Origin: an uncultured Actinomycetota bacterium
GTDB taxonomy: Bacteria; Actinomycetota; Actinomycetes; Mycobacteriales; SCTD01
DNA length: 64,000 nt
Direction of reading: 5' to 3'
Assembly (NCBI GenBank): GCA_963760125.1
Contig: CAVXBV010000007.1
Location: 129,613-193,612, forward strand
Below the pieces are notes generated by a model, which saw only the letters and a list, made by a program, of their open reading frames with translations, had not been told where the DNA came from and made no database searches. Made by a program: the position numbers and the translations under genes. How positions within the stretch are numbered: position 1 is the stretch's first letter; every line of letters begins with the position of its first letter. Of the stretch, positions 6,548-33,300 are shown piece after piece.

Positions 6548-7334
6548 GGGTCACACGATCCACCGGCTGGCCCGTGACCAGGGTCGGCTGCTCACGGGTC
6601 ATCGCGTGTCGATGGCCAGCCCGCAGGGGCGCTTCAGCGAGGGTGCCGCGCTGCTCAGCGGGCGCACCTGCACCGGGCTGACTCCGTACGGCAAGCACCT
6701 CTGGTACGACCTCGACGGCGGGCTGTCCCTGCACGTGCACCTCGGGCTCTACGGGACGTGGACGACCGGGACCGGGCCGCCTCCCGAGCCCCGCGGCCAG
6801 CTGCGGCTGCGGATGGTCGCCGGCGACCACTGGTGGGACCTGCGCGGGCCGACCGCCTGCGAGGTGCACACCCCCGCCGACCGTCAGCGGGTCCTCGCCC
6901 GACTCGGGCCCGACCCGCTGAGCACGCAGGACCGCGGAGCAGACGCCTTCGCACGCGTCTCCCGCAGCCGCGCAGCCCTCGGCCAGCTGCTCATGGACCA
7001 GACGGTCCTGGCCGGCGTGGGGAACGTCTACCGCGCCGAGGTGCTCTACCGGGCGGGCCTGTCCCCGTTCACGGCCGGTCGCGACGTGCCCCGGGCGGTG
7101 TGGGACGGCCTCTGGCAGGACACGCGCGTCCTCATGCGGGCAGGGGTGCGAGCCGGCCGCATCGTCACGACGGCACCCCGAGACCGTGCGCGCCGGTCCG
7201 GCGTGGTGAGCCGGGACGACGCGCACTACGTCTACCGGCGGGCGGGTCTGCCGTGCCGCCGCTGCGGGGCCGAGGTGCGGACCCAGGTGATGGCCGGCCG
7301 GAACCTGTTCTGGTGCCCGCACGAGCAGTCCTGA
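6540..7334 (+). CDS. nei: Fpg/Nei family DNA glycosylase (endonuclease VIII-like)
   Basis: N-terminal MPEGHT (catalytic Pro2/Glu3) and a C-terminal zinc finger CRRCG...WCPHEQ. It overlaps the rpiB stop by 8 nt. Confidence 0.9.
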   Translation: MPEGHTIHRLARDQGRLLTGHRVSMASPQGRFSEGAALLSGRTCTGLTPYGKHLWYDLDGGLSLHVHLGLYGTWTTGTGPPPEPRGQLRLRMVAGDHWWDLRGPTACEVHTPADRQRVLARLGPDPLSTQDRGADAFARVSRSRAALGQLLMDQTVLAGVGNVYRAEVLYRAGLSPFTAGRDVPRAVWDGLWQDTRVLMRAGVRAGRIVTTAPRDRARRSGVVSRDDAHYVYRRAGLPCRRCGAEVRTQVMAGRNLFWCPHEQS

Positions 7335-12460: not shown

Positions 12461-13084
12461 ATGTTCGAGACCCCCACGAACTACACGATCCCGATCGTCA
12501 TCGAGCAGACCTCCCGCGGGGAGCGCTCCTTCGACATCTACAGCCGCCTGCTCAAGGAGCGCATCATCTTCCTGGGCACGCCGATCGACGACGGCGTCGC
12601 CAACGTCGTCATGGCGCAGATGCTGCACCTGGAGTCCGAGGACCCCGACCGCGACATCTCGATCTACATCAACAGCCCCGGCGGCTCGTTCACCGCGCTG
12701 ACGGCGATCTACGACACGATGCAGTTCGTCAAGCCGGAGATCCAGACCATCTGCATGGGCCAGGCCGCCTCCGCGGCTGCGGTGCTGCTGGCCGCGGGGA
12801 CCAAGGGCAAGCGCCTGGCGTTGCAGCACGCGCGGGTGCTCATCCACCAGCCCAGTGGTGGTGGCGAGGGCCAGTCCTCCGACATCGAGATCCAGGCTCG
12901 CGAGATCATGCGGATGCGGGACCTGCTCGAGAAGATGCTGTCCGACCACACCGGCCGGCCCGCGGCCGACGTCCGCAAGGACATCGAGCGCGACAAGATC
13001 CTCACGGCCGCCGAGGCGGTCGAGTACGGCCTCATCGACGAGGTCGTCAGCACCCGCAAGACGGCGGTGCTCAGCTCGACCTGA
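12461..13084 (+). CDS. clpP: ATP-dependent Clp protease proteolytic subunit ClpP2
   Basis: Second ClpP paralogue: [43 protein letters not shown]. Confidence 0.95.
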
Positions 13085-22466: not shown

Positions 22467-24752
22467 GTGACCGACAGCTCCCGGCTTCGCCTGGTGGTGC
22501 TGCGCGTCGTGGTGGTCTCCATCCTCCTGACCCTGCTCGGTCGCCTGGCCTACCTCCAGCTGGCCGAGGGCGCGACCTACAGCGCAAAGGCCGGCGACAA
22601 CCGGATCCGTCAGGTCATCACCCCGGCGGCGCGCGGGCAGATCCTCGACGACCGAGGCGTGCCCTTGGTGAGCAACCGGACGGCGCTGGTCGTCTCGGTG
22701 ACCCGCTCGATCGTGCGCAGCCAGCCGAAGAAGGGCGCGGCCGTGCTGGAGCGACTCGCAGCCGTGGTCGGCATTCCCGCCCTGCAGATCGCCCGGACCA
22801 TCACCCCGTGCGGGGAGAAGCAGCCGGACGGCACGATCGCCAACAAGGACAGCGGCTGCTGGAACGGCTCGCCACTTCAGGCCGTCCCGATCGTCTCCTA
22901 CCGCGCCGACGACAGCACTCAGGTCCGCAAGGTCCTCGCGATCGAGGAGCACGCCGAAGACTTCCCAGGCATCCAGGCGAAGTACGCCGCCGTTCGCGAG
23001 TACCCGCAGGGCGCCATCGCCGCGCACAGCCTCGGCTACATCGGCTCGCTGACGGGCGACGACCTGTTGAGCGACCCGAGCCTGAAGGCCCTCGCCTCCG
23101 GCTCGCTGATCGGCAAGAGCGGCGTCGAGCAGGTGTACGACGCCCAGCTGCGCGGTGTCGACGGGGTGCAGCGACTGCTGGTCGACAAGGACGCGACGGT
23201 GACGGGCACGCTCGGCACCGTGGAGGCGCAAGCGGGCGACAACCTGGTGCTCAGCCTCGACTCGAGCCTGCAGCGGGTGGCCGAGAAGGCCCTCGCCGAC
23301 GGCGTCGCGGCGGCCCGCGCGCGCTACGACAAGGGGCGCGGCAAGAACTTCACGGCCCCCAACGGCGCGGCGATCGTCGTGGACGTCCGCAACGGTCAGG
23401 TGGTCGCGCTGGCCAACTTCCCGTCGTACGACCCGGCGCTGTTCGTCCCCCGCATCTCCACCGCGGACTACACGGCGCTGCTCAACGCACCGGGCAAGCC
23501 GCTGCTCGCGACCGCGACGCAGGGGCAGTACGCCCCGGGCTCGACCTTCAAGATCTCCTCGACCGCTGCCGCCGTCGCTGCCGGCAACCCGCTCTACGGG
23601 ACCTATCCCTGCACGTCGTCGTTCACCGCCGGACGGACGTTCCGGAACTTCGAGGGGGAGACGTTCGGCAACATCGACCTGCGCAAGACCCTCGTGAAGT
23701 CCTGCGACACGGTCTACTACCGGCTGGCGTTCAACGAGTGGAAGAACGACGGCGGGACGAAGAACACCGGGCGGGCGAGGGAGATCTTCGCCAAGACCGC
23801 GCGCGCCTTCGGCTTCGGTACCGACACCGGGATCGACCTGCCGAGCGAGTCGAACGGGTCGGTCACCGACCGCGCGTCCAAGACCAAGGACTACGAGAGC
23901 CTGAAGAAGGCCAAGTGCGATCGGGCCAAGAACGGCTACCCGGAGGAGCCGGACCCGGGCCGCGCCGCCTACCTGAAGGCCCTCGCCGTGGAGTACTGCG
24001 CGGACGGCTTCACCTACAAGGGTGGTGACGCGATCTTGTTCTCCATCGGACAGGGCGATGTGCTGTCGACCCCGATGCAGCTCACCATGGCGTACGCCGC
24101 GCTCGCCAACGGCGGCACCGTCTTCGAGCCGCGGGTGGCCAAGGGCTTCCTGTCCGCGGACGGGACGACCTTCAGCAAGGTGGCTCCTGCGGTGAAGGGC
24201 ACGTTGGGGGTTCCGGCCGAGGTCCTCGACTACATGCGCTCCTCGCTGGTCGGCGTCCCGCAGCCCGGAGGAACGGCGCAGACGGCCTTCCGCGGGTTCC
24301 CCTTCGGGCAGCTGTCGGTCGCGGGCAAGACCGGGACGGCCGACGTCGACCCGGTCCGCAAGGCCCCGACGTCCTGGTTCGCCTCGTTCGCACCGGCCAG
24401 CGCCCCCAAGTACGCCGTGGTGGTCATGGTCGCCGAGGCCGGCACCGGTGGCACGACGGCAGCGCCGATCACCCGCAAGATCTACGACGCGATGTACGGC
24501 TTCAGCGGCCAGAAGCGCCTGCTCGACGCCAACGGCGACCTGCCCTCGGCGCTGCCCGTCGTCCAGCCGGACGGGACGATCGGCCGCCCCGGCACCCCGA
24601 CCAAGGCCGTCGAGGTCCCCCTCGGAGGCACAGCGTCCGCCGCTCCTGCTCCCACGTCCTCCTCGGGCTCGGCGCTCGGTGGACCTCCGGGGCTCCCGTG
24701 GGGTGAGCCGGTCCGGCCGACCAGCTTCCGTCGTACGGTCGGGGCACCATGA
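22467..24752 (+). CDS. mrdA: penicillin-binding protein 2 (elongation-specific class B transpeptidase)
   Basis: N-terminal TM anchor and the active-site SxxK motif (STFKISS). It lies between mreD and rodA. Confidence 0.9.
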   Translation: MTDSSRLRLVVLRVVVVSILLTLLGRLAYLQLAEGATYSAKAGDNRIRQVITPAARGQILDDRGVPLVSNRTALVVSVTRSIVRSQPKKGAAVLERLAAVVGIPALQIARTITPCGEKQPDGTIANKDSGCWNGSPLQAVPIVSYRADDSTQVRKVLAIEEHAEDFPGIQAKYAAVREYPQGAIAAHSLGYIGSLTGDDLLSDPSLKALASGSLIGKSGVEQVYDAQLRGVDGVQRLLVDKDATVTGTLGTVEAQAGDNLVLSLDSSLQRVAEKALADGVAAARARYDKGRGKNFTAPNGAAIVVDVRNGQVVALANFPSYDPALFVPRISTADYTALLNAPGKPLLATATQGQYAPGSTFKISSTAAAVAAGNPLYGTYPCTSSFTAGRTFRNFEGETFGNIDLRKTLVKSCDTVYYRLAFNEWKNDGGTKNTGRAREIFAKTARAFGFGTDTGIDLPSESNGSVTDRASKTKDYESLKKAKCDRAKNGYPEEPDPGRAAYLKALAVEYCADGFTYKGGDAILFSIGQGDVLSTPMQLTMAYAALANGGTVFEPRVAKGFLSADGTTFSKVAPAVKGTLGVPAEVLDYMRSSLVGVPQPGGTAQTAFRGFPFGQLSVAGKTGTADVDPVRKAPTSWFASFAPASAPKYAVVVMVAEAGTGGTTAAPITRKIYDAMYGFSGQKRLLDANGDLPSALPVVQPDGTIGRPGTPTKAVEVPLGGTASAAPAPTSSSGSALGGPPGLPWGEPVRPTSFRRTVGAP

Positions 24753-25957
24753 GCAGCAACGACATCGACTGGAGCACCCCCCGGGTGTCGCCCGTGCGGC
24801 TGCGACCGCGCGAGGTCTCGATGCGGGAGCGCGCGTTCGACAAGGCCTCACCGCTTCGTCAGCTCGACTGGCTGCTGATGCTCGCCGTCACCGGCCTGGT
24901 GGTCGTTGGCGGTCTGCTGATCTGGTCCGCGACGCGGGAGAAGGAGATCGCGCTCGGCGCGGACCCGCAGACCTTCCTGAAGAAGCACATCCTCAACGCC
25001 GCGATCGGGCTGGTGCTCGGAACGGCCGCAGCGCTGGTGGACTACCGCGCGCTGCGGGCGTACGCCCCTGTGGTGTACGTCGCGTCGTGCTTCGGGCTGA
25101 TCGCTGTCCTGTCCCCGCTGGGCGCGACGATCAACGGCGCCCACTCCTGGATCGTGCTGCCGGCCGGCTTCCAGATCCAGCCGTCAGAGTTCGCCAAGCT
25201 CGCGATCGTCGTCGGCATCGCCATGCTGCTGGGGGAGAAGCGCGACGGCGAGGACCGACCGCGGGACATGGACGTCCTGCAGGTGCTGGCGTTGTGCGCC
25301 ATCCCGATGGGGCTGATCATGCTGCAGCCCGACTTCGGGACGACGATGGTGTTCATCTTCGTCATCCTCGGCACCCTGGCCGTCGCCGGAGCACCGGCCC
25401 GGTGGGTCGGGGGCCTGCTTCTGGCAGGCGTGCTGGTCGGGACGTTCGTGGCACCGCTGGTGCTCAAGGACTACCAGCTCAACCGCTTCAAGGTCGTGGC
25501 CGACATCGGGGCCGACCCGCGCGGCGTCGGCTTCAACGTGAACCAGGCGCTCATCGCCAACGGCTCGGGCGGGCTGTTCGGCAAGGGGCTGTTCCACGGG
25601 TCGCAGACCCAGGGCCGCTTCATCCCGGAGCAGCAGACCGACTTCGTGTTCACCGTCGCGGGGGAGGAGCTCGGCCTGGTCGGCGCCGGCGGGATCATCC
25701 TGGCGCTCGGACTGGTGCTCTGGCGGGGGCTGCGGATCGCGTCCCGGGCGACCGACCCGTTCGGGCGGCTGGTGGCCGCGGGGGTCGTGTCGTGGTTCGC
25801 CTTCCAGAGCTTCGTCAACATCGGGATGACGCTGGGGATCATGCCGGTGACCGGGCTGCCGCTGCCGTTCGTGTCGTACGGCGGGTCGTCGATGTTCGCC
25901 AACCTCATGGCCATCGGCCTGCTCCAGAACGTCCACATGACCTCCAACGAGACCTGA
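24749..25957 (+). CDS. rodA: SEDS-family peptidoglycan polymerase RodA
   Basis: FtsW/RodA/SpoVE-type polytopic membrane protein (GSGGLFGKGL, PLPFVSYGGSSM). There is an ATGA overlap with pbp2. Confidence 0.9.
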   Translation: MSSNDIDWSTPRVSPVRLRPREVSMRERAFDKASPLRQLDWLLMLAVTGLVVVGGLLIWSATREKEIALGADPQTFLKKHILNAAIGLVLGTAAALVDYRALRAYAPVVYVASCFGLIAVLSPLGATINGAHSWIVLPAGFQIQPSEFAKLAIVVGIAMLLGEKRDGEDRPRDMDVLQVLALCAIPMGLIMLQPDFGTTMVFIFVILGTLAVAGAPARWVGGLLLAGVLVGTFVAPLVLKDYQLNRFKVVADIGADPRGVGFNVNQALIANGSGGLFGKGLFHGSQTQGRFIPEQQTDFVFTVAGEELGLVGAGGIILALGLVLWRGLRIASRATDPFGRLVAAGVVSWFAFQSFVNIGMTLGIMPVTGLPLPFVSYGGSSMFANLMAIGLLQNVHMTSNET

Positions 25958-25988
25958 CCCCGCCGTACCCAGCCCGCCGCCCGCCGTC

Positions 25989-26084
25989 GGTCGCCCGCGC
26001 GCCGCCGTACCCCGCCCGGCGATCGCCCGCGCGCCGCCGTACCCCGCCCGGCGATCGCCCGCGCACCCCGCCGTACCCAGCCTC
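25989..26084. repeat. 32-bp tandem repeat, about 3 copies (plus a degenerate lead-in from 25958)
   Basis: Units at 25989-26020 and 26021-26052 are 31/32 identical (GATCGCCCGCGCGCCGCCGTACCCCGCCCGGC). A third, degenerate unit spans 26053-26084. The 10-bp palindrome GGCGATCGCC recurs at 26018 and 26050. Confidence 0.8.
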
Positions 26085-26133
26085 GCTCCCGCCGCACCCC
26101 TTGCCCGCTCCTCCGCCCCCGCCTCGCCGCGAG

Positions 26134-26184
26134 TGGCCAGTTGGTGTCGTGACACGCGCGTGTCCGTGACACCAGGCCGCCACC
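26134..26184. repeat. 51-bp dispersed repeat, copy A (nested palindromes)
   Basis: TGGCCAGTTGGTGTCGTGACACGCGCGTGTCCGTGACACCAGGCCGCCACC is 48/51 identical to 27306-27356. It contains the perfect 14-bp palindrome GACACGCGCGTGTC within GGTGTC/GACACC arms. Confidence 0.85.
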
Positions 26185-26243
26185 GGCAGCGCCACCGCCC
26201 CGCCCCGCCCCCCGCCACCGCCCCCGCCACCGCCGGGCCCCGA

Positions 26244-27149
26244 TCAGGCCGCCTGTCGGGACCAGGCGGCATGGCGGGCGCTGACCCGCGCGACGAACTC
26301 GGTCTGTCGGCGACGGACGTCGTACCAAGTGCCCCGCTCGACCCACCACCGCTGCGTGCCCGACACCCAGTCGCGTCGCTGGTCCCGCGCGAGCATGAGG
26401 TCGCCGCTGTGCCCCGCCTTCCCGTCCATCTCCACGGCGAAGCGCACCGGGCCGTCACCGAGGTCGTGGCGGGCCGTGACGCGCCCGAGGTGGTCTCGCA
26501 CCTCGACCTGCGGGACCAGGGACGGCAGCACGGGCAGGAGCAGCAGCCGGGCCAGGGTCTCGTTGGCGGACTCGGCTCTTCCGTCGGTGCGCACGAGCGC
26601 CTGCGCCAGTCTCCTGCTCCGGCGCGTCGCGGCGAGCTCGGTCAGCTCGGCGACGGTGAACAGCCGTTCGCGCACGCCTGCGTCGAGCAGGCAGACGAGC
26701 GCGTCGGCGGACAGCAGTCGCGCGCAGTCGTACGCCGTGCGTGCTGCCGACGTCGCCCAGATCCCGCTCTCGAACCGCCCGACCTCGCCGTCCGCCAGCG
26801 TGAGGCGACGACGGCGGACCAGGTGCTCGGTGCCGCGCAGCGGCCCGTGACCGTGCGGGGTGTGGATGTCGTGCTCGTACCGCTGACGAGCACCTGTCGC
26901 CGGGTCCTCGTCATCGATCAGCGGGAGGTTCCAGAGCCTGGCGGCGGACCGGCCGACCGCCACCGCATCGGTCGGCCGGGTCGAGCCACCCGCTGCCAGC
27001 GCAGCGGCGAACGTCAGCTGGCGCGGGGTCAGGACCTGACCGGCATCGGCGTACACCCCGGGAAAGGGCGCCTGCCACGCCCCGGTGCGCAGCTCCTGCC
27101 GGAGGACGGCGCGACTGCACACGGCCAGCGCTGCCCTGCGGGTCCACAC
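26244..27149 (-). CDS. DUF559/Vsr-like endonuclease-fold protein with an N-terminal AbiEi-like wHTH region (function unknown)
   Basis: 301-aa ORF with high GC3. The N-terminal pattern RAVLRQELRTGAWQAPFPGVYA is typical of this actinobacterial family. The C-terminal PQVEV..RHDLGDGPVRFAVEMDGKAGH resembles the D..(E)xDG..H core of DUF559/Vsr-like nucleases. Confidence 0.65.
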   Translation of the reverse strand: MWTRRAALAVCSRAVLRQELRTGAWQAPFPGVYADAGQVLTPRQLTFAAALAAGGSTRPTDAVAVGRSAARLWNLPLIDDEDPATGARQRYEHDIHTPHGHGPLRGTEHLVRRRRLTLADGEVGRFESGIWATSAARTAYDCARLLSADALVCLLDAGVRERLFTVAELTELAATRRSRRLAQALVRTDGRAESANETLARLLLLPVLPSLVPQVEVRDHLGRVTARHDLGDGPVRFAVEMDGKAGHSGDLMLARDQRRDWVSGTQRWWVERGTWYDVRRRQTEFVARVSARHAAWSRQAA

Positions 27150-27305
27150 GCCGTCCGTGCCCTGGCCGAGGGCGCTGAGGCCAGGTCGGGTCTCTCACCG
27201 GTGCAGGGTGACCGATCCACGGCCTTCGCGGGCCGGTCGCTGTGGACATCCGGGCGTCGCGCACCTGCCAGCCGGTCCGCGCCCGCGTCTCAGGCCCGTG
27301 CCCGT

Positions 27306-27356
27306 TGGCCGGTTGGTGTCGTAACACGCGCGTGTCCGTGACACCAAGCCGCCACC
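27306..27356. repeat. 51-bp dispersed repeat, copy B
   Basis: TGGCCGGTTGGTGTCGTAACACGCGCGTGTCCGTGACACCAAGCCGCCACC is in the same orientation as copy A, 1172 bp away. The three substitutions fall at repeat positions 6, 18 and 42. Confidence 0.85.
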
Positions 27357-27462
27357 CGACCGGACCACCAGACCTACGGCCAGACCGCCAGACCAGCCCG
27401 GGCCCGGACGGGGCGCCACGCGCAGCACGGTGGACAAGGCTGGGCGCCCGTACCCTGGAGTC

Positions 27463-29366
<1,904 letters not shown>

Positions 29367-29367
<1 letters not shown>

Positions 29368-30313: not shown

Positions 30314-33300
30314 GTGCTCGACAACGAGCCCAGCACCCCCGCCACGACCACCCCCGCCACGACGACCCCGCCACGACCACCCCGGGCGACGGGATCCCGC
30401 CGAGCGCGGTGGCCGCCGAGCCCAGCACGACCCCGGACGCTGTCACCGAGGCGCCGAAGAAGGCCGTGCGCCGCCGGGCCACGAAGGCCACCGCTGCGCC
30501 CAAGGCCGAGGCGACCGACGAGAGCGCCGCCGCCCCCGAGGCGCAGACGCCGGCTGCCGAGGCCGAGTCTCCGGCTGAGGACGCGGCGCCGAAGAAGGCC
30601 GCGAAGAAGGCTCCCGCCAAGAAGGCAGCCCCGCGCAAGCGGGCGGCCGCCAAGCCCGACAGCCCCACCGACAGCCCCACCGACAGCCCCACCGACAGCC
30701 CCACCGGCAGCCCTGCCGACAGCACGGACGTCGCTGCCGAGGACGAGGACGCCGCCGACCCGGGCCGAGCGACCGAGGCACCCGACGCGTCCCCCACGGA
30801 CATGCCCTCGGACACGCCCTCGGACCCGCCCGCCGACGCGACCGCCGGGTACGGCGACGAGGCCACCCCCCGCCGCCGTACCCGCGCCCCGGCCGTCGTC
30901 CTGACCTTCCAGCCGCCCGTCCCGACCGAGGACGCTCCCGCCCCGCGCCAGCGCCGTCGTGCCGGCACCGCCGGCGCGGTGAACCCGGCCGACGTCGTGA
31001 GCACCCAGGCCGCCGACGAGCAGGCCAAGGACGCCACCGCCGACGAGGACACCGAGGACGACGACACCGAGGGCGGTGCCCGCCCCCGCCGCCGTCGCGG
31101 CCGTCGTGGTCGGGGTGGTTCGGGCACCCGGACGGCCCAGGGCACAGACGACGCCGACGAGGACGACGACACCACCGGTGACAGCGCGGACAGCCCCGGC
31201 ACCCGCTCCAGCGGATCCCCCCGCAAGGCCGCCGGCACGAGCGCCGACGCCAGCGAGGACGACGAGGACGAGGACGACGAGGACGGTCCCGCGGGCACCG
31301 GCACGCGTCGCCGTCGGCGGCGCCGCCGCAGTGGCGGAGGCGGCGGAGGCGGCGGTCAGAGCGGCGACGGCGACAACGACGCCGACGGCGATGTCCCGAC
31401 CGTCGTGCACGTCCGCGAGCCAGGCTCCCGCAGCTCCGGCAGTGGCGGCGGTGGCAGCCGCAACCGCAGCAGCCGCGACCGCGACGGCGGCGGCGCCGCT
31501 GACGAGGACGGCGTGCGCGGCATCAGCGGCAGCACCCGTATGGCCGCCAAGCGCGTCCGGCGCCAGGAGGGTCGCGACAGCGGCCGCAAGCGCGCCCCCA
31601 TCGTGTCCGAGGCAGAGTTCCTCGCTCGCCGCGAGGCCGTCGAGCGCCAGATGGTCGTCCGTCAGAAGGGCGACCGCACCCAGATCGCGGTCCTCGAGGA
31701 CGGCATCCTGGTCGAGCACTACGTCACGAAGGCCAGCGCCACGTCGTACGCCGGGAACGTCTACCTCGGGCGCGTGCAGAACGTCCTGCCGAGCATGGAG
31801 GCGGCGTTCGTCGACATCGGCAAGGGCCGCAACGCCGTGCTGTACGCCGGCGAGGTCAACTGGGAGGGCGTGTCGGGCGGCTCGCGCAAGATCGAGCAGG
31901 CGCTGAAGTCCGGCCAGGAGGTCCTGGTCCAGGTCAGCAAGGACCCGATCGGCCACAAGGGCGCCCGCCTCACCAGCCAGATCAGCCTGCCCGGCCGCTA
32001 CCTGGTCTACGTGCCCGAGAGCTCGATGACCGGGATCAGCCGCAAGCTGCCCGAGACCGAGCGCACCCGGCTGAAGAACATCCTCAAGAACGTCGTCCCG
32101 GACGGCGCCGGCGTGATCATCCGCACGGCCGCCGAGGGGGTGTCGGAGGAGGAGATCGCCAAGGACGTCCGCCGGCTGCAGGCGCAGTGGGAGGTCATCC
32201 AGAGCAAGACCTCGCAGGGTGGCGCGCCCAAGCAGCTGCACGCCGAGCCCGACCTGGTCATCAAGGTCGTCCGCGACATCTTCAACGAGGACTTCACGAG
32301 CCTGGTGGTCCAGGGCGACTCCGAGTGGGACACCATCCGTGAGTACGTCGAGTTCGTGGCCCCCGACCTCGCGCCGCGCCTGAGCCGCTTCGCCGGCAAC
32401 GGTGACGTGTTCAGCGAGCACCGGGTGGACGAGCAGCTGCTTAAGGCGCTCGACCGCAAGGTGCACCTGCCCTCGGGCGGCTCGCTGGTCATCGACCGCA
32501 CCGAGGCGATGGTCGTCGTCGACGTCAACACCGGCAAGTACGTCGGCAAGGGCGGCAACCTCGAGGAGACGGTCACCCGCAACAACCTCGAGGCCGCGGA
32601 GGAGATCGCCCGCCAGCTGCGCCTGCGCGACCTCGGCGGCATCATCGTCGTCGACTTCATCGACATGGTCCTCGAGAGCAACCGCGACCTCGTGGTCCGT
32701 CGACTGGTCGAGTGCCTCGGTCGTGACCGCACCAAGCACCAGGTCGCCGAGGTCACCTCGCTGGGCCTGGTCCAGATGACTCGCAAGCGGGTGGGTCAGG
32801 GTCTGCTCGAGAGCTTCAGCGAGACCTGCGAGTCCTGCAACGGCCGCGGCGTGAAGGTCCACCTCGACCCGGTCGACCCCAAGCCGCACCGCGACGACCG
32901 TGACCGCGCCCCGCGGGTCGGTCCGAAGCCGCCCCTGCCGGCAGGCGCTCCCGCGCCGGCCGAGAACAAGGAGCCGGCTGAGGGCGGTGGCTCGCGCAAC
33001 CGCCGTCGCCGCGGAGGCCGTGGGCAGGGCGCCGGATCGCTGCCGCTCGAGAGCACCGTCGACCCGTCGAACGAGCTCGCCGAGATCCTCGACGCCGGCA
33101 AGGCGCTCGCCGCGCAGACCCCCGTGGCCGACGCCGTCGAGCAGGCGACGCCCGTCGTGGCTGTCCCGGCGCCGGTCGAGGTCGAGATCGCGGCGGACGT
33201 CCCCGTCGCCGATGCGGTCGAGCAGGCCACCGAGGTCGTGCTCGAGCCCGAAGCGGTGCCCGTGCTGCAGGACCCGCCCGTCGAGGAGCCCGACCTGGTC

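What the first reader, a model, noticed from the sequence alone, without database searches (positions are those of the whole stretch)
26134..27356. Nuclease-like gene bracketed by 51-bp direct repeats with nested palindromes, inserted in a conserved core block
Sequences 26134-26184 and 27306-27356 are 48/51 identical (TGGCCRGTTGGTGTCGTRACACGCGCGTGTCCGTGACACCARGCCGCCACC), in the same orientation and 1172 bp apart.

They are the only sizeable dispersed repeat I can find in the window. They bracket exactly one gene, the minus-strand 301-aa Vsr/DUF559-like ORF. That gene sits between rodA and the radical-SAM/rne block, which is otherwise tightly packed and widely syntenic in Actinomycetota.

Each copy has a 31-bp core, GGTGTC-GT-GACACGC|GCGTGTC-CGT-GACACC. 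This is a perfect 14-bp palindrome nested inside GGTGTC/GACACC arms, giving four GTGTC/GACAC half-sites. As ssDNA or RNA it could fold into an imperfect hairpin of about 16 bp. The three substitutions between copies are not compensatory, which favours DNA-level duplication over a conserved structured RNA.

Possible readings:
- (a) A duplicated target or att-like site left by insertion of a 1.17-kb cassette into a pre-existing palindromic intergenic element.
- (b) A REPtron-like arrangement in which a nuclease gene is flanked by the hairpin elements it acts on.
- (c) Paired operators.

No integrase or transposase is present, so any mobility would be unconventional.
Basis: partly seen in the sequence, partly recalled or inferred. 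Interest (0 to 1): 0.7.

Follow-up and report, generated by a model that had tools for sequence, protein, structure and literature searches.

The report
Hairpin-bracketed nuclease gene module
A fast-evolving DNA-binding nuclease gene wedged between two core operons is bracketed by two copies of its own long DNA hairpin, and the same gene-plus-two-repeats layout recurs in relatives from many Actinomycetota, pointing to an undescribed nuclease/repeat partnership that resembles REP-RAYT systems but uses an unrelated enzyme.

Summary
In detail: two 51-nt copies (48/51 identical, 1172 bp apart) bracket a 301-aa minus-strand ORF between rodA and a radical SAM gene. The ORF is an AbiEi-like wHTH fused to a Vsr/DUF559/MTES_1575-type nuclease.

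It is not a one-off insertion. In at least 20 metagenomic or MAG loci the orthologue (40-71% identity) sits at the same position. In 21 of 29 loci it is flanked on both sides by a 50-75-nt near-perfect hairpin. The hairpin base (TGATCA) and apex (GACACGCC/GGCGTGTC) are conserved. The stem between them differs between lineages but stays complementary (15 of 25 pairs compensatory). The stop codon is often the TGA of TGATCA.

The hairpins travel with the gene to other loci and occur as rare solo copies. They are absent from clean empty sites in close relatives. Distant superfamily members, including three of four paralogues in Tsukamurella tyrosinosolvens, each have their own flanking repeat pair.

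Best reading: the repeats are cognate cis-elements of the encoded protein (REPtron-like architecture). They probably combine autoregulation and insulation with recombination or mobilisation. Pure operator/terminator roles remain a serious rival. No biochemical function was tested.

The parts
27306..27356 (.). Upstream hairpin copy, on the promoter side of the minus-strand gene. It is an imperfect palindrome, TGGCCGGTTGGTGTC-GT-AACACGC|GCGTGTC-CGT-GACACCAAGCCGCCA. It lies 57 nt upstream of the ancestral ATG (27249) and 106 nt upstream of the radical SAM ATG (27463).
   Evidence: 75% conserved against the orthologous copy in L001, compared with 30-47% for the flanking intergenic DNA
26134..26184 (.). 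Downstream hairpin copy, in the same orientation. It lies 59 nt past the gene's stop codon and 176 nt past the rodA stop, between two convergent genes.
   Evidence: 86% conserved against L001, compared with 44-49% for adjacent intergenic DNA
26244..27149 (-). 301-aa ORF: an AbiEi-like N-terminal wHTH region fused to a C-terminal Vsr/DUF559/MTES_1575-type PD-(D/E)xK nuclease domain. The stop codon lies within cTGATCg, a relic of the TGATCA hairpin base seen in relatives.
   Evidence: invariant E193, E197, P213-Q214, D229, D242-G243, H247, D256, E271-R272 retained; AF2 pLDDT 91.6; 3r3p, 3hrl; AbiEi; dN/dS 0.28 against L001
27150..27249 (-). Disrupted ancestral N-terminal extension. The conserved ATG ('MST', 27249-27247) is out of frame with the body. 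An in-frame TGA at 27197-27195 precedes the still-recognisable 'LSALGQGTDG' family motif. Translation can only start at GTG 27149.
   Evidence: L001 orthologue has an intact 331-aa ORF starting MST...
26185..26243 (.). GC-rich low-complexity filler (CGCCCC/CGCCACCGCCCCC tandem repeats) that separates the stop codon from the downstream hairpin. In most relatives the hairpin begins at the stop codon.
25958..26133 (.). Spacer between rodA and the hairpin. It contains a 32-nt tandem repeat (25980-26082, 3.2 copies, 90%) carrying CCGCCGTAC. That motif resembles the CCCGTACCCTGG immediately upstream of the radical SAM start, and in empty-site relative L041 it directly follows the rodA stop.
27440..27465 (+). 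Conserved CGTAsCCTGG motif (TACCCT at 27451-27456) 6 nt before the radical SAM ATG (27463-27465). It is present in occupied and empty loci alike and marks the radical-SAM-side boundary of the module.
   Evidence: motif in every locus; a -10-like role is inference only; no sigma-70 consensus promoter was found

Best explanation
The two repeats are the cognate cis-elements of the gene they enclose. Together they form a discrete three-part module: hairpin, AbiEi-like wHTH plus Vsr-like nuclease ORF, hairpin.

Shown:
- The layout is conserved across a clade of Frankiales/Mycobacteriales-type Actinomycetota at the rodA|radical-SAM junction. It recurs in paralogues elsewhere and in distant superfamily members.
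- The hairpins are under constraint for both sequence (base and apex motifs) and pairing.
- The two copies in a genome stay more alike than orthologous copies do.
- Solo hairpins and clean empty sites both exist.

Inferred:
- The wHTH recognises the CGTGTC-type apex motifs.
- The upstream copy acts as operator for a potentially toxic nuclease.
- The downstream copy, which in most relatives starts at the stop codon, ends the transcript and insulates the antisense gene from rodA.
- The nuclease acts on the extruded or duplex hairpins. This would drive homogenisation of the two copies and occasional excision, loss and re-insertion of the module, or of the hairpin alone.

In this respect it would work like a RAYT with its REP/REPIN sequences, or like the hairpin ends of IS200/IS605, but with an unrelated enzyme. 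The window's copy looks mildly degenerate: shortened hairpins without the TGATCA base, a displaced downstream hairpin and a truncated N-terminus.
For: - Same locus and same two repeats in the nearest relative.
- Orthologues at 40-50% identity occupy the same position in at least 20 loci.
- Flank-to-flank direct-repeat scores are 44-124 in 21 of 29 loci. Mismatched-locus controls give a mean of 24 and a 95th percentile of 31.
- The elements are 50-75-nt near-perfect hairpins with a conserved base and apex. 15 of 25 pairs show compensatory changes.
- A covariance-model search of 290 kb finds every strong hit within a few hundred bp of a family gene, and none elsewhere in the 64-kb window.
- The stop codon overlaps the first bases of the downstream hairpin in 10 loci.
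- Non-syntenic paralogues L006, L022, L023, L024 and L035 carry hairpins too, sometimes in arrays of 2-4 per side.
- Copies within a genome share derived states (CGTGACACC in both window copies, CGCAGCACC in both L001 copies). They differ by 6-11%, against 14-25% between orthologous copies.
- Hairpins are conserved where the surrounding intergenic DNA is not.
- Two solo copies lie next to unrelated genes in the relative's genome. One has an insertion-like footprint.
- Empty sites without any hairpin nest inside the occupied clade.
- Three of three distant superfamily members, and three of four paralogues in Tsukamurella tyrosinosolvens, each have their own private flanking repeat pair.
- The gene is under purifying selection but evolves fast (dN/dS 0.28).
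- The nuclease motifs are intact. The fold matches a Vsr-like homing endonuclease domain.
- The N-terminal region matches AbiEi models, a family shown to bind inverted repeats (PMC7319586).
Against: - No binding or cleavage was tested, so the protein-hairpin link is inferred from co-occurrence only.
- Dispersal is very low. Only 4 copies matched a strict pattern in the one complete-ish relative genome. This is unlike the tens to hundreds of REPINs per genome.
- The flanking copies are in direct, not inverted, orientation.
- The family was not found on plasmids and gave one weak phage hit.
- Within loci, many differences between the two copies break pairs (38 breaking against 8 compensated). 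Maintenance of the hairpin is therefore imperfect.
- Palindromes can also self-correct by template switching without selection.
- The gene tree is nearly star-like, so vertical descent with loss cannot be separated from repeated insertion.
- Two of the Tsukamurella repeat pairs are complex direct repeats rather than long hairpins.
Confidence: 0.5

Rival explanations
1. Regulation and insulation only. The upstream palindrome is the autoregulatory operator of the AbiEi-like wHTH. The downstream one is a factor-bound or structural terminator and insulator for an antisense, potentially toxic gene sitting between two essential operons. The two look alike because the same protein binds both (possibly looping the 1.1 kb between them) and because gene conversion homogenises them. 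There is no mobility and no nuclease action on the hairpins.
For: AbiEi antitoxins autoregulate through inverted repeats in their promoters (PMC7319586, PMC3985639). The upstream hairpin lies about 60-120 nt before the start codon, in the divergent promoter region. The downstream hairpin starts at or near the stop codon between convergent genes. There is no strand asymmetry in folding, as expected for a bidirectional or DNA-level element. Synteny is deep and there are no plasmid or phage carriers.
Against: This reading does not explain the lineage-specific but complementary 20-30-bp stems. It does not explain arrays of 2-4 hairpins on each side or solo copies at unrelated loci with an insertion-like footprint. 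It does not explain why the hairpins accompany the gene to new loci, or why empty sites are clean. There is no U-tract terminator signature. A terminator and an operator also have no need to be the same 65-nt sequence.
Confidence: 0.27
2. Free-standing homing endonuclease gene. The Vsr-like nuclease cuts the unoccupied rodA|radical-SAM junction, or a solo hairpin, in other cells or alleles. The gene is then copied in by recombinational repair. The flanking hairpins would be insulators, or short homology arms that let the cassette home into solo hairpins.
For: The best solved-structure match is the catalytic domain of homing endonuclease I-Bth0305I (3r3p, prob 1.0). Presence and absence are patchy, with clean empty sites nested among occupied relatives. 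Synonymous divergence of the gene (dS 0.85) is 2-3 times that of the flanking genes (0.25-0.42). The gene tree is incongruent with RodA. The window copy shows an N-terminal lesion, consistent with an invasion-decay cycle. A possible duplication of the CCGTACCC target motif bounds the module in the window, L001 and L017.
Against: Classical homing does not create or need 50-75-nt hairpins on both sides. The target-motif duplication is seen only in one subclade. The gene tree is saturated, so the incongruence is weak evidence. Elevated dS could instead reflect weak codon constraint or local mutation. No cleavage data exist.
Confidence: 0.15
3. att-like or target duplication made by an external recombinase. 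This would be an integron-cassette, Xer or phage-type insertion into a pre-existing palindrome, with the hairpins as duplicated host sequence.
For: A direct-repeat pair bracketing exactly one gene, with a hairpin at the 3' end of the ORF, resembles a cassette with attC. Each Tsukamurella paralogue has a private repeat, as target duplications would.
Against: Empty sites carry no hairpin. Paralogues at unrelated loci share the same base and apex motifs with the syntenic ones, so the repeats are not local host sequence. No integrase or transposase is seen in any flank. The hairpin base is TGATCA, not an integron core site. Duplications of 50-117 bp are far longer than known target-site duplications.
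Confidence: 0.05

Closest known systems
REPtrons: RAYT genes with their REP/REPIN sequences (PMC3116915, PMC3337134)
   Same: A single nuclease-type gene is flanked by copies of a palindromic, hairpin-forming repeat. Repeat sequence is specific to the associated gene. The system is largely chromosomal with syntenic persistence. Occasional extra copies of the repeat occur elsewhere. REPINs are likewise long hairpins.
   Different: The enzyme here is a wHTH plus Vsr-like PD-(D/E)xK nuclease, not an HUH/Y1 IS200-like transposase. The flanking copies are direct, not inverted. Genome copy number is very low (4 by a strict pattern in one MAG) rather than tens to hundreds. There is no GTAG-type REP head.
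IS200/IS605-family ends (subterminal imperfect palindromes recognised as hairpins by TnpA)
   Same: An ORF is bounded by two similar hairpins in the same orientation, abutting the coding sequence. A structure-plus-sequence signal is conserved.
   Different: There is no HUH transposase. There is no evidence of multiple identical copies. The hairpins are much longer (50-75 nt). Mobility is not demonstrated.
AbiEi antitoxins of type IV AbiE toxin-antitoxin systems (PMC3985639, PMC7319586)
   Same: The N-terminal ~200 residues match AbiEi models, and inverted repeats lie upstream of the gene. This is consistent with autoregulatory binding.
   Different: There is no AbiEii (DUF1814) toxin partner. 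The C-terminus is a fused nuclease. A second copy of the repeat lies downstream of the gene. The repeats are long extrudable hairpins rather than short operator half-sites.
Vsr-like nucleases: Vsr, DUF559, MTES_1575 REase (PMC3710099) and homing endonuclease I-Bth0305I (PDB 3r3p)
   Same: The C-terminal fold and motif residues match. There is presence/absence polymorphism at a conserved intergenic site, as for free-standing homing endonuclease genes.
   Different: None of these is known to be bracketed by cognate hairpin repeats. I-Bth0305I is phage- and intron-associated. Vsr acts in mismatch repair.
Integron gene cassettes (ORF plus attC hairpin)
   Same: A single promoter-poor ORF is followed immediately by an imperfect palindrome that folds as a hairpin. 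In an array a cassette is flanked by such sites in direct orientation.
   Different: There is no IntI integrase or attI nearby, no integron core-site motifs and no cassette array. The gene is always the same family rather than variable cargo.

Membership tests
Vsr / DUF559 / MTES_1575 PD-(D/E)xK nuclease superfamily | Sequence match to PF18741 or PF04480 | tested here: met
   The window protein alone gives no hit at E<=10. At family level, 26 of 33 aligned relatives hit PF18741 and 4 hit PF04480. The window protein aligns over its full length at 44-71% identity.
Vsr / DUF559 / MTES_1575 PD-(D/E)xK nuclease superfamily | Vsr-like fold and retention of the acidic/His motif residues | tested here: met
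   AF2 model pLDDT 91.6. Foldseek top hits are 3r3p (prob 1.0, TM-target 0.61-0.65) and 3hrl (TM-target 0.71). The invariant E..E, PQ, D, DG..H, D and ER columns are kept. Catalytic activity is not testable here.
AbiEi (type IV TA antitoxin) | N-terminal AbiEi-type wHTH / AbiEi domain | tested here: met
   PADLOC AbiEi models: P0025 2.8e-14, P0040 1.5e-12 and 1.2e-11, window 1e-3. Pfam AbiEi_4 or AbiEi_1 appears in a few members.
AbiEi (type IV TA antitoxin) | Adjacent AbiEii (DUF1814 nucleotidyltransferase) toxin gene in a bicistronic operon | tested here: not met
   The neighbours are rodA and radical SAM in the syntenic loci, and unrelated genes elsewhere. No DUF1814 is seen.
REPtron (RAYT + REP/REPIN) | Gene flanked by copies of a cognate palindromic repeat | tested here: met
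REPtron (RAYT + REP/REPIN) | Enzyme is an IS200-like HUH/Y1 tyrosine transposase | tested here: not met
   There is no Y1_Tnp/HUH match. The domain is a Vsr-like PD-(D/E)xK. PMC3337134 names the HUH and Y motifs as conserved in RAYTs.
REPtron (RAYT + REP/REPIN) | Repeat population of tens to hundreds of dispersed copies in the same genome | tested here: inconclusive
   A strict 20-base pattern found 4 copies in the one relative genome present in the collection, 2 of them solo. There are no extra strong hits in 290 kb of held sequence. A relaxed whole-genome scan was not possible.
REPtron (RAYT + REP/REPIN) | Flanking repeats in inverted orientation | tested here: not met
   Direct orientation in the window, L001 and most loci. 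Inverted in L022 and L046.
IS200/IS605 | TnpA (HUH) transposase and multiple near-identical element copies | tested here: not met
   There is no HUH domain. Paralogues within one genome have unrelated flanks and about 35-39% protein identity to the query used.
Free-standing homing endonuclease gene | Presence/absence polymorphism at one conserved site, with intact empty alleles | tested here: met
   L040 and L041 are empty (19-40 nt gaps). L042, L043 and about 20 others are occupied.
Free-standing homing endonuclease gene | Enzyme cleaves the empty allele | not testable with these tools
   Needs purified protein and L040/L041-type junction DNA.
Integron gene cassette | attC with R''/R' core sites, and an IntI/attI platform nearby | tested here: not met
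   The hairpin base is TGATCA, or GTGGC in the window. No integrase appears in any flank.
Intrinsic (rho-independent) terminator | GC-rich stem-loop followed by a U-tract | tested here: not met
   No terminator-like site in 25850-27550. The hairpins lack a T-run. U-less terminators in Actinomycetota cannot be excluded.
Known structured RNA (Rfam 15) | Match to a curated covariance model | tested here: not met
   Nothing near gathering score in the window region or in 10 related loci. There is no strand bias in folding energy.

The most novel reading that the evidence does not exclude
AbiEi-wHTH/Vsr-nuclease genes, a superfamily with thousands of members mostly annotated 'DUF559' or 'AbiEi antitoxin domain' proteins, are the protein half of a previously unrecognised class of hairpin-bounded genetic elements. 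A PD-(D/E)xK nuclease, rather than an HUH transposase, would recognise, process and propagate its private hairpin repeats. This would be an independent, actinobacterial counterpart of the RAYT-REPIN partnership, ranging from mobile multi-copy forms to a domesticated, vertically inherited copy at the rodA/rne locus.
Probability: 0.3. Interest if true: 0.9.

Novelty: new variant of a known kind. Interest (0 to 1): 0.72.

Why it matters
If the encoded protein really acts on its flanking hairpins, this is a second, mechanistically independent solution to the nuclease-plus-hairpin-repeat lifestyle known from RAYT/REPIN and IS200/IS605. It would occur in a phylum where REP systems are barely described.

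It would also give a functional context to a very large, unannotated protein family. The profile search finds 6,510 50%-identity clusters at E<=1e-10, routinely labelled DUF559 or AbiEi-domain proteins.

It would explain why these genes sit as isolated, fast-evolving, often antisense ORFs between core genes. Finally, it offers a cultured test organism (Tsukamurella tyrosinosolvens NCTC13231, four paralogues with private repeats) in which binding, cleavage, excision and regulation can be tested directly.

Tried and rejected
- Rfam. An E-value-mode scan of the window region and a gathering-mode scan of 10 related loci found nothing.
- One-strand RNA function. Fold energies of 40 elements show no strand bias (18 against 21, p=0.28), so a sense-strand riboregulator is not favoured.
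- U-tract terminator and sigma-70 promoter scans found nothing.
- Generic high-copy REP-like repeat. Rejected: the strict pattern gives only 4 copies in the relative MAG, and the covariance model finds no strong hits away from family genes in 290 kb.
- Pre-existing palindrome as insertion target. Rejected for this locus because the empty sites have no hairpin.
- Plasmid or phage carriage. No plasmid hits for P0040 or P0297, and one weak phage hit. The Tsukamurella 'plasmid' records are chromosome fragments carrying tatB, mrp and pdxS.
- Gene tree against RodA tree to separate vertical descent from re-insertion. Uninformative, because family distances saturate near 0.5.
- A target-site duplication of the CCGTACCC motif is seen only in the window, L001 and L017.
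- I first read the motif before the radical SAM start as a -35/-10 pair with 17-nt spacing. On recounting, the spacer in the window is 14 nt, so only a -10-like TAsCCT box is claimed, and that as inference.
- PDB sequence searches gave nothing useful.
- The exact window protein is not on record for a context look-up.
Full report
**1. Observation.**
Positions 26134-26184 and 27306-27356 are 48/51 identical, in the same orientation and 1172 bp apart. The 31-nt core matches only these two places in the 64-kb window, even allowing three mismatches, against 0 expected from shuffles.

They bracket a single ORF, 26244-27149 on the minus strand (301 aa). This ORF lies between rodA (PF01098) and a Radical_SAM_N2/Radical_SAM gene.

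The only other sizeable repeat in the window is coding: the clpP1/clpP2 paralogue pair.

**2. The gene.**
The ORF has no Pfam or NCBIfam hit of its own. It does have 207 word-indexed homologues.

In a 33-sequence alignment, 26 members hit PF18741 (REase_MTES_1575) and 4 hit DUF559. PF18741 was defined as a novel Vsr-family restriction-endonuclease fold (PMC3710099). All invariant acidic, His and ER motif columns are kept in the window protein.

An AlphaFold model is confident (pLDDT 91.6). Its C-terminal domain best matches the catalytic domain of the Vsr-like homing endonuclease I-Bth0305I (3r3p) and the DUF559-like NGO0050 (3hrl).

The N-terminal ~200 residues match AbiEi models: 1e-12 to 1e-14 in members, 1e-3 for the window protein.

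Compared with its relatives the window copy has lost its N-terminal extension. The conserved ATG at 27249 is out of frame, and a TGA at 27197-27195 precedes the still-recognisable LSALG...G motif.

Against its closest orthologue the gene has dN/dS 0.28. It is therefore constrained, but it evolves faster than rodA (0.08) and the radical SAM gene (0.16). Its dS of 0.85 is two to three times that of the flanks.

**3. Not a recent insertion.**
The nearest relative is MAG MFD02581.bin.1.174, with RodA 95% and radical SAM 96% identical but this gene only 71% identical. It has the gene in the same place with the same two repeats.

Orthologues at 40-50% identity occupy the same rodA | gene (antisense) | radical SAM position. 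This holds in at least 20 independent metagenomic or MAG loci, including two loci sampled through RodA alone.

**4. The repeats are a general, structured feature of the gene.**
In 21 of 29 loci the best local alignment between the upstream and downstream flanks is a direct repeat scoring 44-124. Mismatched-locus controls give a mean of 24 and a 95th percentile of 31.

The elements are 50-75-nt near-perfect hairpins, with fold energies down to -69 kcal/mol over the 90-nt extracts. Their base (TGATCA...TGATCA) and apex (GACACGCC/GGCGTGTC) are conserved. The stem between them differs completely between lineages yet remains complementary. In a 14-sequence structural alignment, 15 of 25 pairs show compensatory double changes.

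Folding energy shows no strand preference, and Rfam has no matching family. This points to a DNA-level or both-strand element.

In 10 loci the gene's stop codon overlaps the first bases of the downstream hairpin, usually as the TGA of TGATCA. The upstream hairpin ends 100-180 nt before the conserved GVWT motif.

The window and its sister genome carry a shortened variant without the TGATCA base. In these two genomes the downstream hairpin is displaced by 45-59 nt of GC-rich filler, although the window's stop still lies in cTGATCg.

**5. The hairpins belong to the gene, not to the neighbours.**
- Paralogues in unrelated contexts (L006, L022, L023, L024, L035) also carry hairpins, sometimes 2-4 per side.
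- A covariance model searched over 290 kb finds every strong hit next to a family gene.
- Two relatives nested inside the occupied clade on a RodA tree have empty junctions of 19 and 40 nt, with neither gene nor hairpin.
- In the window/L001 comparison the hairpins are 75-86% conserved, whereas the adjacent intergenic DNA is 30-49%.

**6. Concerted evolution and dispersal.**
Both window copies read CGTGACACC where both L001 copies read CGCAGCACC. Within-genome copies differ by 6-11%, whereas orthologous copies differ by 14-25%.

Within loci, differences between the two copies are enriched in unpaired positions: 68 of 146 differences, although only about 22% of positions are unpaired. There are 8 compensated pairs but also 38 disruptive changes.

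The relative's genome holds two further copies with the same 33-nt core. One follows glnD. The other lies between a YkcB-like gene and an SDR gene. The second looks like a ~60-nt insertion into one copy of a duplicated promoter segment.

**7. Breadth.**
An exhaustive profile search separates a compact rodA-locus subfamily (75 representatives at E<=1e-30) from a very large superfamily of ~300-aa AbiEi-plus-Vsr proteins (6,510 at 1e-10; 19,283 at 1e-3).

Three arbitrarily chosen distant members are each flanked by their own palindromic repeat pair, all sharing a CGTGT core.

In the cultured Tsukamurella tyrosinosolvens NCTC13231, four paralogues lie between unrelated housekeeping genes. Three of them have private flanking pairs:
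- a 78-nt direct repeat;
- a 64-nt near-perfect hairpin whose upstream copy contains the start codon and whose downstream copy starts right after the stop codon;
- a 117-nt direct repeat.

There is no similarity between the repeats of different paralogues.

**8. Interpretation.**
The shown facts define a module: hairpin, wHTH-nuclease ORF, hairpin. The repeats co-vary with the gene.

The closest architectural analogues are REPtrons and IS200/IS605 ends. [quoted passage not shown] Membership of these families fails on the enzyme class and, so far, on copy number.

Known AbiEi biology is autoregulation through promoter inverted repeats (PMC7319586). This makes operator function of the upstream copy likely, and it keeps a purely regulatory/insulator reading alive. 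That reading does not account for several observations:
- the covarying long stems;
- the hairpin arrays;
- the solo copies;
- the clean empty sites;
- the fact that the repeats travel with the gene.

A homing-endonuclease reading draws support from the fold match, the patchy occupancy, the elevated dS and a possible target-motif duplication in one subclade. It does not explain the hairpins.

I therefore favour the view that the repeats are cognate cis-elements on which the encoded protein acts, for regulation plus recombination or mobilisation. I put this at about 0.5 confidence and mark every step beyond co-occurrence as inference.

**9. Novelty.**
Literature searches for DUF559, MTES_1575 or AbiEi together with palindromes or repeats, and for REPIN/RAYT in Actinobacteria, found no description of this arrangement. 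I rate it a new variant of a known kind: a nuclease gene with cognate hairpin repeats.

Noticed in passing
L005:7364-7575 (relative MAG MFD02581.bin.1.174, contig_17778): A promoter-like unit (TTyCTGCACGnnATGTGCAAGAATC + CCATCCCGCCrGTCAC) occurs twice upstream of an SDR gene. One copy equals the other plus a ~60-nt insertion carrying the left arm and apex of the hairpin, while the native CCATCCCGCC supplies the right outer arm. It looks like an insertion footprint of a solo hairpin.
   Followed up: partly
window:25958-26133: A 32-nt tandem repeat (25980-26082, 3.2 copies, 90%) carries CCGCCGTAC directly after rodA. The same motif (CCCGTACCCTGG) sits just before the radical SAM ATG and, in empty-site relative L041, directly follows the rodA stop. 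This may be a target duplication bounding the module, but it is seen only in the window, L001 and L017.
   Followed up: partly
window:27440-27465 and the equivalent position in all related loci: A strongly conserved CGTAsCCTkG lies 5-7 nt upstream of the radical SAM (TIGR03960-like) start codon in every locus, occupied or empty. It might be a -10-like box of a leaderless or near-leaderless transcript heading the radical SAM-DUF2344-rne block. The homologue-supported start is ATG 27463, not the GTG 27430 of the mechanical ORF list.
   Followed up: partly
window:26244-27149 versus 24749-25957 and 27463-29367: Synonymous divergence of the nuclease gene from its orthologue in L001 (dS 0.85) is 2-3 times that of the immediately adjacent genes (0.42, 0.25). 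Allelic replacement, local hypermutation and weak codon constraint are all possible explanations.
   Followed up: no
L006:5579-5646 and 7117-7180: The non-syntenic paralogue, with its 3+2 hairpin array, is itself bracketed by a ~68-nt inverted repeat (GGCACGCTCCGGGCCTGGGACTTCGTCCCTTGATGGCCC...). This could be an outer boundary of a composite element, or a split larger palindrome.
   Followed up: no
window:11880-12179 and 12537-12836: A 300-nt, 73%-identical direct repeat is the adjacent clpP1/clpP2 paralogue pair (both PF00574).
   Followed up: yes
window:30644-30723: A 12-nt tandem repeat (CCGACAGCCCCA, about 6 copies) lies inside the long ORF downstream of DUF2344. This is presumably a low-complexity region of the RNase E/G homologue. 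Further acidic GAC/GAG-rich repeats occur at 31017-31285.
   Followed up: no
L047-L050 (NZ_LR134451, LR134454, LR134463, LR134465): Records labelled 'plasmid 9/12/21/23' of Tsukamurella tyrosinosolvens NCTC13231 carry housekeeping genes (tatB, mrp, pdxS, a Ser/Thr kinase). They are evidently chromosome fragments, so the plasmid label should not be read as evidence of mobility.
   Followed up: partly
L030:5067-5139: A weak covariance-model hit (E about 5e-5) to the hairpin model lies inside the rodA coding region of one locus. It may be chance or a degenerate copy.
   Followed up: no
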